IMG/VR virus record: IMGVR_UViG_2728369393_000007
Length of the DNA: 64,000 nt
Direction: 5' to 3' (one strand)
Source: a virus
Lineage: Duplodnaviria; Heunggongvirae; Uroviricota; Caudoviricetes
Under the pieces are notes generated by a model that had not been told where the DNA came from, ran no database searches, and saw nothing but the letters and a program-made list of their open reading frames with translations. Made by a program: the position numbers and the translations under genes. Shown here piece after piece: positions 10,355 through 10,720 of the stretch. Position 1 is the stretch's first letter. Every line of letters starts with the position of its first letter.

Positions 10355-10361
10355 TAAAAAA

Positions 10362-10396
10362 AGCCAGCGACTGATCTGAAAAAGAAGACGCTGGCT
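10362..10396 (-). terminator. hairpin oriented as a minus-strand rho-independent terminator (repeat unit 1)
   Basis: AGCCAGCG…CGCTGGCT 8-bp stem preceded on + strand by A7 (T7 tail on - strand). Confidence 0.4.
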
Positions 10397-10511
10397 AAAA
10401 GGCCTTATATGTTTGTAGAGACTTATTTTTCACAGACAGCAATGATGCCTGTCAATATATTATCAATATGCGGATTGTTTCAGTTACAGATGCCTTATTA
10501 AGGAAAAAAAC

Positions 10512-10546
10512 AGCCAGCACTGACTTTCGGTGGAGAGGTGCTGGCT
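10512..10546 (-). terminator. hairpin oriented as a minus-strand terminator (repeat unit 2)
   Basis: AGCCAGCAC…GTGCTGGCT 9-bp stem preceded by A7; diverged copy of unit 1 with a compensatory base-pair insertion. Confidence 0.4.
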
Positions 10547-10720
10547 CAAAAGGATAGATGTACTTCACATGTTGCTTCTATATGGTAGTACATTTTCTGA
10601 CAGACAGTGACGGATGTTGTCAAGATATTGTGTCATTTATAACCTGAATCAGGGGAGGCCGGAATGTTATCTGGCATTTTTAGCAGAGCCTGAATGCCAT
10701 GATCACGGCTCCCGGCGTTG

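What the first reader, a model, noticed from the sequence alone, without database searches (positions are those of the whole stretch)
10355..10650. Duplicated hairpin elements with compensatory changes between nanS-p and holin
Two diverged ~110-140-bp direct repeats each contain a long stem (AGCCAGCG/CGCTGGCT vs AGCCAGCAC/GTGCTGGCT) whose differences keep pairing intact, and each is preceded by A7 on the + strand, so on the - strand they read as stem + T7 rho-independent terminators. They could terminate antisense transcription into nanS-p or be 3' ends of paralogous minus-strand small RNAs.
Basis: seen in the sequence. Interest (0 to 1): 0.5.

Follow-up and report, generated by a model that had tools for sequence, protein, structure and literature searches.

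The report
Known prophage sRNA PasA locus
The two hairpins are the transcription terminators of an already published prophage small RNA (PasA) and of a diverged copy right behind it, both read from the strand opposite to the phage late genes, so the finding is real but mostly known.

Summary
Observation confirmed. Two GC-rich stem-loops (10362-10396 and 10512-10546) lie 150 nt apart between the sialate esterase gene nanS-p and the pinholin gene. Each is followed by U7 only on the minus strand.

They are not new. The published Northern probe for the Hfq-dependent sRNA PasA of EPEC E2348/69 matches window 10513-10537 exactly, and the two loci align without indels. On that mapping, PasA is minus-strand 10588->10504, ending at hairpin B plus U7. 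Its published minor 236-nt form ends at 10353, just past hairpin A. RIL-seq fragments end at 10356, the last U after hairpin A. In EHEC Sakai, the Hfq-crosslinking peaks EcOnc51 and EcOnc52 cover unit B and unit A respectively.

What I did not find in the four papers read or the text searches:
- Unit A is a diverged tandem copy of the pasA unit, with a similar promoter-like block.
- Its terminator resembles that of the paralogue PasC.
- The G-C to A-U compensatory change lies inside the published PasA seed.

A 2026 preprint says pasA copies are not tandem duplicates. Whether unit A is transcribed on its own remains untested.

The parts
10504..10588 (-). pasA gene (unit B): 85-nt Hfq-dependent small RNA, 5' end 10588, 3' end 10504
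   Evidence: Table S6 of PMC8550237 gives PasA in NC_011601.1 as minus strand, 743499 to 743415. The indel-free alignment of the window with that locus gives an offset of 732911. The Northern probe matches 10513-10537 on the + strand with 0 mismatches, so the RNA is on the - strand. In this stretch the window differs from E2348/69 PasA at one base (10586).
10512..10546 (-). Hairpin B: intrinsic terminator stem-loop of PasA (9-bp stem AGCCAGCAC/GUGCUGGCU). Its 5' arm plus two nucleotides (10545->10536, GCCAGCACCU) is the published PasA seed.
   Evidence: (I15). Seed from Fig. S5 of PMC8550237. [quoted passage not shown]
10504..10510 (-). U7 tract of the PasA terminator (A7 on the + strand). The published major 3' end falls on its last U.
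10592..10623 (-). Promoter-like block of unit B: TTGACA (10623->10618), 17-nt spacer, then TCAGAAAAT (10600->10592). The published PasA 5' end (10588) lies 4-7 nt downstream.
   Evidence: Read from the sequence. The block is 100% identical between PasA and PasC loci. Promoter function is inferred: the -10 element is weak and the consensus scan did not call it. The preprint suggests instead that the 5' end arises by processing.
10362..10396 (-). Hairpin A: second minus-strand terminator stem-loop (8-bp stem AGCCAGCG/CGCUGGCU plus inner pairs), directly abutting the nanS-p stop codon
   Evidence: (I8). The minor 236-nt PasA form ends 3 nt beyond its U-tract. The RIL-seq RNA2 fragment 743267-743294 equals window 10356-10383. 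The EcOnc52 Hfq peak covers it.
10356..10362 (-). U7 tract after hairpin A (its first U closes the stem). It lies one base from the nanS-p stop codon TAA (10352-10354).
10353..10455 (-). Unit A: a diverged tandem copy of the pasA unit. It has TTGACA (10455->10450), a 17-nt spacer, TGAAAAAT (10432->10425), a short body and hairpin A. If it is transcribed independently, the predicted RNA is about 65-70 nt (roughly 10423->10356).
   Evidence: Alignments; shuffle test. The EcOnc52 peak spans the equivalent of window 10344-10423. Independent transcription is inferred, not shown.
10353..10588 (-). 236-nt minor PasA species: read-through of terminator B that stops at terminator A
   Evidence: Table S6 of PMC8550237 lists 743499 to 743264 as the minor form, mapped
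8504..10354 (+). nanS-p-like SASA sialate O-acetylesterase gene (flank). Its stop codon lies 1 nt from the U-tract of terminator A.
   Evidence: PF03629, PF08410, PF20350
10802..11008 (+). P21-type class II holin (pinholin) gene S (flank)
   Evidence: PF04971

Best explanation
The region is the pasA small-RNA locus of a lambdoid prophage. It is read from the strand opposite to the late operon.

Unit B (10588->10504) is the pasA gene itself. It produces an 85-nt RNA whose 3' end is formed by intrinsic termination at hairpin B plus U7. The U4 stretch in front of the stem together with the poly-U tail is the usual Hfq-binding module. The RNA acts in trans by base pairing through a seed (GCCAGCACCU) that overlaps the 5' arm of the terminator stem.

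A minority of polymerases read through terminator B. They stop 150 nt further on at hairpin A plus U7, one base short of the nanS-p stop codon. This gives the 236-nt minor species and keeps antisense transcription out of nanS-p. Neither hairpin has a U-tract on the + strand, so late transcription towards the lysis genes is not blocked.

Unit A is a diverged tandem copy of the same unit. It keeps a similar TTGACA-N17-A-rich promoter-like block and a terminator of the PasC type (AGCCAGCG/CGCUGGCU).

Shown by published experiments on near-identical loci: the strand, both 3' ends, Hfq dependence of PasA and Hfq binding at both units.

Inferred: read-through as the origin of the 236-nt form, the insulating role of terminator A, and the promoter assignment.
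For: - The PasA Northern probe matches window 10513-10537 on the + strand exactly and uniquely.
- Table S6 of PMC8550237 lists PasA as minus strand, 743499-743415 (major, 85 nt) or 743264 (minor, 236 nt), in a '> < >' arrangement between esterase E2348C_0688 and holin E2348C_0689.
- The window and that locus align without indels and with about 99.4% identity. The ends therefore map to 10588, 10504 and 10353.
- The A7 runs start at 743415 and 743267 in E2348/69. The major 3' end and the RIL-seq fragment end (743267) thus fall on the last U of each tract.
- pasA RNA drops in the hfq mutant (log2FC -2.8) and PasA shows Hfq-dependent stability on Northern blots.
- The Sakai Hfq-CRAC peaks EcOnc51 and EcOnc52, both flagged as having Rho-independent terminators, cover unit B and unit A.
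- Folding z-scores are -4.4 and -3.2.
- Across 13 distinct units the stem is 88.8% paired, against 20-49% when the partner is slid. Pair 8 is G-C (8) or A-U (5), and pair 11 is C-G or U-A. A U.G wobble in PasC pairs only on the minus strand.
- The preprint places pasA/pasC between the sialate esterase gene and the holin-lysozyme operon.
- Phage 434's record annotates both sites as minus-strand terminators.
- 671 of 5426 complete E. coli genomes carry at least 80% of 10330-10670, that is, both units.
Against: - No expression data exist for this window itself. Everything rests on 97-99% identical loci in other strains.
- The loops are long (17-19 nt) for canonical intrinsic terminators, and the simple scan did not call them.
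- The PasA 5' end was taken from RNA-seq coverage, and the preprint interprets it as a processing site. The promoter-like block may therefore not be the promoter. Its -10 element is weak.
- Sakai peak coordinates refer to NC_002695.1 whereas I read NC_002695.2. Unit A and unit B sequences recur in several Sakai prophages, so assigning reads to a particular copy is uncertain.
- The whole 236-nt RNA does not fold better than shuffles (z = -1.0).
Confidence: 0.9

Rival explanations
1. Unit A is not merely a back-up terminator. It is an independently transcribed third member of the PasA/PasC family: an RNA of about 65-70 nt with its own promoter and its own seed (GCCAGCGUCU). On this reading the locus is a tandem two-gene sRNA array like OmrA/OmrB or PrrF1/PrrF2.
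For: - Unit A keeps TTGACA-N17-TGAAAAAT in register with unit B's TTGACA-N17-TCAGAAAAT. This block is the best-conserved stretch outside the hairpins.
- It keeps the U4 + stem + U7 Hfq module.
- The EcOnc52 Hfq peak (AUC 1.03 million against 1.09 million for EcOnc51) spans the terminator up to about 10423, close to the start predicted from that block. It was reported in Sp4, where IS629 separates unit A from unit B.
- The 'pasA.E2348C_0688.IGR' RNA behaves like an sRNA in RIL-seq: it is always the second RNA in chimeras and has 5 partners, including escD.
- The body of unit A is identical in E2348/69 and Sakai, while the neighbouring unit B bodies differ by 27%.
Against: - The authors of the EPEC study describe only a 236-nt form starting at the PasA 5' end. 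Their probe cannot see a separate unit A RNA.
- The -10-like element lacks the consensus A2/T6 at canonical spacing.
- The body is shortened by about 18 nt and is only 42% identical to PasA, which also fits decay of a duplicate.
- CRAC reads from identical copies cannot be assigned to Sp4 with certainty.
- One IMG/VR locus (L116) keeps hairpin A without the promoter-like block.
Confidence: 0.4
2. The hairpins act on the + strand. They would serve as 3' stabilisers or processing sites of the nanS-p / late mRNA, or as attenuators of late transcription in front of the lysis genes.
For: The stems are perfect Watson-Crick helices that fold equally well on the + strand (-17.1 and -20.8 kcal/mol). 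Hairpin A starts 8 nt after the nanS-p stop codon.
Against: - On the + strand both stems are followed by AAAAGG and preceded by A7, so they have no U-tract.
- The RNAs actually detected (Northern, RIL-seq, CRAC) are on the minus strand.
- The PasC variant has a U.G wobble that becomes an A.C mismatch on the + strand.
- A separate strong + strand terminator exists further on at 10720-10752.
Confidence: 0.07
3. The similarity of the two units is coincidental: two unrelated terminators happen to share a GC-rich stem, with no common origin.
For: Identity outside the stems is low (42% in the body). With only two copies in the window, the stem match alone is short.
Against: - The units share A7 + (A)GCCAGC ... 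GCTGGCT + (N)AAAAGG in exact 150-nt register (D4 and D9).
- The collinear body and promoter-like similarity is reached by only 6 of 2000 shuffles.
- The PasC locus links the two types: it has an A-type stem and position with a B-type body.
Confidence: 0.03

Closest known systems
PasA (pathogenicity-associated sRNA A) of EPEC E2348/69, prophage PP2; homologues EcOnc51/EcOnc52 of EHEC Sakai (Pearl Mizrahi et al. 2021, PMC8550237; Tree et al. 2014, PMC4104026; Zhu, Shabalina & Storz 2026 preprint)
   Same: Same position (esterase > pasA < holin) and same strand relative to the late genes. The window differs at 1 of 85 bases. It has the same terminator hairpin, the same seed and the same downstream second terminator 150 nt away.
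   Different: Nothing substantive: this is an allele of the same gene. The papers treat the downstream hairpin only as the end of a minor long form, or as a 'homologue' peak. They do not describe it as a diverged tandem copy.
PasC of EPEC E2348/69 prophage PP5 and phage 2B8
   Same: Same promoter-like block (100% identical) and same mapped 5' end. The body is 83% identical to PasA. Its terminator stem AGCCAGCG/CGCUGGCU and its position directly against the esterase stop codon match hairpin A of the window.
   Different: PasC loci hold a single unit. The window holds two. No PasC-probe match is found in the window at up to 3 mismatches. The PasC loop is shorter and its stem longer (11 bp with a U.G pair).
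Tandem paralogous Hfq-dependent sRNAs (OmrA/OmrB in E. coli, PrrF1/PrrF2 in Pseudomonas)
   Same: Two adjacent, same-strand, diverged units, each with a terminator/Hfq module, and a read-through product spanning both (as with PrrH over PrrF1-PrrF2; from my own knowledge).
   Different: Independent transcription of the second unit is not shown here. The units are far more diverged in their bodies. The locus is on a prophage, antisense to the late operon.
AsxR/AgvB anti-sRNAs of Stx and lambdoid prophages (Rfam RF02703, RF02702)
   Same: Short Hfq-binding prophage RNAs antisense to the late operon in the moron region, with a conserved 3' terminator module and variable 5' parts.
   Different: They lie at a different site (upstream of nanS-p, downstream of stx) and have a different sequence. 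No Rfam match at E <= 1 anywhere in 6500-12500 for either family.

Membership tests
PasA/PasC prophage sRNA family | Sequence identity to PasA of E2348/69, including the Northern probe site | tested here: met
   The probe matches 10513-10537 with 0 mismatches and is unique in the window. The locus alignment has no indels, and there is 1 substitution within the 85-nt RNA.
PasA/PasC prophage sRNA family | Located between the SASA sialate esterase gene and the holin-lysozyme operon, on the opposite strand | tested here: met
   ORFs and Pfam hits. The published arrangement '> < >' is given and the synteny description.
PasA/PasC prophage sRNA family | [quoted passage not shown] | tested here: met
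   Seed, found at 10545->10536.
PasA/PasC prophage sRNA family | Expressed as an approximately 85-nt RNA stabilised by Hfq | not testable with these tools
   Shown for E2348/69 by Northern blot and RNA-seq in wild type and the hfq mutant. No data exist for the organism of this window.
PasA/PasC prophage sRNA family (unit A as a further member) | Own transcription start giving a discrete small RNA | not testable with these tools
   Only a promoter-like block and Hfq/RIL-seq signals that read-through could also explain. The dRNA-seq tables of Sy et al. 2020 are not held.
Intrinsic (Rho-independent) terminator | GC-rich stem immediately followed by a U-tract on the transcribed strand | tested here: met
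   Perfect 8- and 9-bp stems with 6 G-C pairs each, followed by U7 on the minus strand only. Published RNA 3' ends fall in the U-tracts.
Intrinsic (Rho-independent) terminator | Short loop (3-8 nt) | tested here: inconclusive
   The nominal loops are 19 and 17 nt, so the scan skipped them. Predicted inner pairs reduce the apical loops to 4-5 nt.
AsxR / AgvB anti-sRNAs (Rfam RF02703 / RF02702) | Match to the family covariance model | tested here: not met
   No hit at E <= 1 in window 6500-12500.
HnrS (EcOnc10-12) multicopy prophage sRNA | Sequence and position of EcOnc10 in Sakai Sp12 | tested here: not met
   EcOnc10 lies 3.4 kb away from the esterase-holin spacer in Sp12. The EcOnc10 stretch has no match in the window.

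The most novel reading that the evidence does not exclude
The pasA locus is a tandem array of two diverged sRNA genes. Unit A (about 10423->10356) would be an independently transcribed, Hfq-binding third family member whose seed (GCCAGCGUCU) differs from that of PasA (GCCAGCACCU) through the very G-C to A-U compensatory change that preserves the terminator stem. PasC loci would be the single-unit state related to the array by a 150-bp duplication or deletion between the hairpins. This would correct the published statement that pasA copies never arise by tandem duplication.
Probability: 0.4. Interest if true: 0.35.

Novelty: already known. Interest (0 to 1): 0.22.

Why it matters
PasA ranked 12th by number of interactions in the EPEC Hfq interactome. 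Its partners include type III secretion and bfp genes, and its function is still uncharacterised.

Genome annotation would miss this locus: there is no Rfam match in 10355-10650 at E <= 1, and none of the RefSeq/GenBank records I looked at annotates an RNA gene there.

The only increment here is evolutionary. The locus appears to carry a diverged tandem duplicate, and the stem covariation sits in the seed. This suggests how new target specificities could arise while termination and Hfq binding are kept.

Tried and rejected
1. Rfam scan at E <= 1 over 6500-12500: nothing in 10355-10650. AsxR and AgvB did not match.

2. I first suspected that PasA was a + strand RNA ending at the strong terminator 10720-10752. 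The probe orientation and the published strand rule this out.

3. I suspected that the 66-nt multicopy sRNA HnrS might be unit A. It is EcOnc10-12, 3.4 kb away in Sp12, and is absent from the window.

4. Fetching loci through the holin protein from one genome per species gave only one further locus with the hairpins (E. albertii, L006). The element is confined to Escherichia prophages.

5. An IMG/VR pattern scan returned mostly chance matches. About 20 true loci were recovered by BLAST.

6. RNA duplex prediction between PasA and the nanS-p 3' end, which is a RIL-seq partner, gave -32 kcal/mol. That equals the background mean (-33.5), so it is uninformative.

7. Searching the paper library for the stem sequences found nothing.

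8. The dRNA-seq/Term-seq tables of Sy et al. 2020 are not held.

9. Module identities do not decide whether the tandem state or the single PasC-like state is ancestral. The PasC terminator is 81% identical to A and 74% to B.

Full report
**1. What is in the sequence**

The 447-nt spacer lies between the stop codon of a 616-aa SASA/DUF1737/DUF6645 esterase (nanS-p type, 8504-10354, +) and a P21-type class II holin (10802-11008, +). It holds two stem-loops:
- Hairpin A: AGCCAGCG (10362-10369) / CGCTGGCT (10389-10396).
- Hairpin B: AGCCAGCAC (10512-10520) / GTGCTGGCT (10538-10546).

Each is preceded on the + strand by A7 and followed by AAAAGG. Only the minus strand therefore reads as stem + U7. 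The two hairpins are in a 150-nt register (D4 and D9).

On the minus strand, 61-nt pieces fold to -17.4 and -16.3 kcal/mol (z = -4.4 and -3.2). The motif GCCAGC-N10-32-GCTGGC occurs three times in the window against 0.2 expected.

Outside the hairpins the two 150-nt units are weakly alike. A collinear local alignment scores 27 against 15.6 +/- 2.6 in dinucleotide shuffles, and 6 of 2000 shuffles reach it. The caveat is that the 'repeat' is strong only in the terminator module and in one upstream block.

**2. What it is**

Rfam has nothing here, including the prophage anti-sRNAs AsxR and AgvB. The literature does.

Pearl Mizrahi et al. 2021 (PMC8550237, Table S6) list the sRNA PasA of EPEC E2348/69 prophage PP2:
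- minus strand, 743499 to 743415 (major, 85 nt) or 743264 (minor, 236 nt);
- flanked '> < >' by E2348C_0688 and E2348C_0689;
- Northern probe GCCAGCACTGACTTTCGGTGGAGAG.

That probe matches window 10513-10537 on the + strand exactly and uniquely, so the RNA is on the minus strand. In RefSeq the two flanking genes are the SASA esterase and the class II holin. The window aligns to this locus without indels.

The resulting mapping is:
- PasA 5' end at 10588.
- Major 3' end at 10504, the last U of the U7 after hairpin B.
- Minor 3' end at 10353, three nucleotides past the U7 after hairpin A and two nucleotides into the nanS-p stop codon.

A RIL-seq chimera partner annotated 'pasA.E2348C_0688.IGR' spans 743267-743294 (minus). 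This equals window 10356-10383 and ends on the last U after hairpin A.

PasA is Hfq-dependent on Northern blots, and its level falls in the hfq mutant.

In EHEC Sakai, Tree et al. 2014 listed two orphan Hfq-crosslinking peaks with predicted Rho-independent terminators, EcOnc51 (Sp12) and EcOnc52 (Sp4).
- In the Sakai sequence, EcOnc51 covers hairpin B with its flanks.
- EcOnc52 covers hairpin A plus about 27 nt upstream. It sits in a prophage where IS629 has separated unit A from unit B.

Phage 434 (99.4% identical here) has both hairpins annotated as minus-strand terminators.

The Storz-lab preprint of May 2026 places pasA/pasC between the sialate esterase gene and the holin-lysozyme operon. 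It describes the 3' stem-loop plus poly-U and notes that the PasA seed unusually overlaps the terminator stem.

**3. How it most likely works**

Unit B is the pasA gene. Hairpin B plus U7 terminates it. The U4 stretch before the stem and the U-tail form the usual Hfq module. The seed GCCAGCACCU (10545->10536) pairs with targets in trans.

Polymerases that read through terminator B are stopped by hairpin A plus U7 just before they would enter nanS-p in antisense. This gives the 236-nt minor form.

Because neither hairpin has a U-tract on the + strand, late transcription towards S, R and Rz is not hindered.

These last three steps (read-through, insulation, one-way termination) are inferences from the anatomy and the published ends. 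The strand, the ends and Hfq association are published observations on loci 97-99% identical to this one.

**4. Points beyond the papers I read**

(a) Unit A looks like a diverged tandem copy of the whole pasA unit, not just a second hairpin. On the minus strand both units read TTGACA - 17 nt - T(C/G)A(G/A)AAAAT - body - YYUUUU(G)AGCCAGC...GCUGGCU - U7.
- The promoter-like block is 66% identical between units.
- The body is 42% identical, and unit A is about 18 nt shorter.
- The terminator module is 55-57% identical.

The preprint states that the closest pasA copies are 22 kb apart and are not products of tandem duplication. The diverged neighbour was presumably below their BLAST threshold.

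(b) PasC loci (E2348/69 PP5, phage 2B8 and several IMG/VR contigs) carry one unit only.
- The terminator stem is of the A type and abuts the esterase stop codon exactly as hairpin A does.
- The promoter-like block (100%) and body (83%) are of the B type.
- The mapped PasC 5' end coincides with that of PasA.

The single and tandem states thus differ by one 150-bp duplication or deletion between the hairpins. The module identities do not tell which came first.

(c) Covariation was counted across 13 distinct units.
- The stem is 88.8% paired, against 20-49% when the 3' partner is slid.
- Pair 8 is G-C in A/C-type units (8) and A-U in B-type units (5).
- Pair 11 is C-G or U-A.
- Pair 9 is C-G, U.G or U-A.
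- The U.G wobble in PasC is valid only on the minus strand.

These are few independent events, so the statistic is supportive rather than strong. Pair 8 lies inside the published seed.

**5. Open point**

Whether unit A is transcribed on its own is undecided.

In favour:
- the conserved promoter-like block;
- the intact Hfq module;
- the extent of the EcOnc52 peak and its size, similar to EcOnc51;
- the sRNA-like behaviour of the unit A 3' end in RIL-seq;
- the invariance of its body across prophages whose unit B bodies differ by 27%.

Against:
- the weak -10 element;
- the authors' description of a 236-nt read-through form only;
- the inability to assign CRAC reads among identical copies;
- one locus (L116) that keeps hairpin A without the upstream block.

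I put this at about 0.4.

**6. Distribution**

Of 5426 complete E. coli genomes, 692 have a match and 671 carry at least 80% of 10330-10670, that is, both units. The median is 6 places per genome with any match, and the maximum is 9.

Among one genome per species, only E. albertii showed the hairpins. In the phage collection there are 29 records, mostly Stx1a-converting phages, plus 434, H-19B, YYZ-2008 and 2B8.

**7. Verdict**

The feature is the already described PasA locus (EcOnc51/52), so novelty is low.

The tandem-copy reading, the link to PasC and the seed-in-stem covariation are modest additions. They could be settled with public dRNA-seq/Term-seq data or a single Northern blot.

Noticed in passing
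window 8194-8409 (+): Rfam STnc100 match (100.8 bits, E = 8e-22) at 8194-8366, followed by a + strand terminator at 8391-8409, just upstream of nanS-p. This is the position of PasD2/EcOnc13-type sRNAs. The PasD Northern probe has no match in the window at up to 3 mismatches, so it is an STnc100-type rather than a PasD1/2-type allele.
   Followed up: partly
window 10655-10755 (+): A strong + strand intrinsic terminator (GGCCGTCAGTG-GGTGA-CACTGGCGGC + T6GT5, 10720-10752) lies only about 50 nt upstream of the holin start codon. It is preceded by a weaker terminator-like hairpin at 10658-10675. The whole stretch is invariant between PasA and PasC loci. The EPEC RIL-seq tables list a + strand RNA 'pasA.E2348C_0689.IGR' in this spacer. 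Its role is unknown: it could be the 3' end of a + strand RNA convergent with pasA, or a Q-dependent checkpoint before the lysis genes.
   Followed up: partly
window 7180-7420 (+): ARAGORN finds three adjacent tRNA genes: Met-CAT (7180-7255), Lys-TTT (7257-7332) and Arg-TCT (7346-7420). The Rfam tRNA model reported only the first and third at E <= 1, so the middle one may be atypical or degenerate.
   Followed up: no
window 10229-10244 and 10631-10646: A 16-nt inverted repeat, 94% complementary (CAGGTTATAAAAGACA / TGTCATTTATAACCTG). One arm lies inside the 3' part of nanS-p and the other just upstream of the pasA promoter-like block. A second, weaker pair is 10322-10340 / 10634-10652. They could be chance.
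   Followed up: no
window 7858-8025 (+): A short ORF (55 aa) matches only the C-terminal part of Pfam TerB (PF05099, E = 9e-8). It is probably a remnant or part of a frameshifted TerB-like moron gene, one of the 'PasA/PasC conserved genes' named in the preprint.
   Followed up: no
L189 (Sakai Sp4) 1209-1340; L003 (E2348/69 PP5) about 2577 onwards (match ends 2576); L190/L191 (plasmids): The spacer is a target of IS insertions. IS629 sits right after unit A in Sakai Sp4. ISEc13 sits right after the + strand terminator in E2348/69 PP5, replacing the holin. Plasmids such as pO145 carry an esterase-end + unit A fragment flanked by IS elements.
   Followed up: partly
units in L005, L138, L177, L182, L188, L106: Unit B bodies fall into at least two types that differ in the first ~40 transcribed nucleotides but share promoter-like block and terminator. 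One is the PasA type; the other, found in Sakai and H-19B, is presumably the preprint's PasA-2. Unit A next to them stays nearly invariant. This is a pattern of variable 5' part and constant 3' module, similar to that described for AsxR/AgvB.
   Followed up: partly
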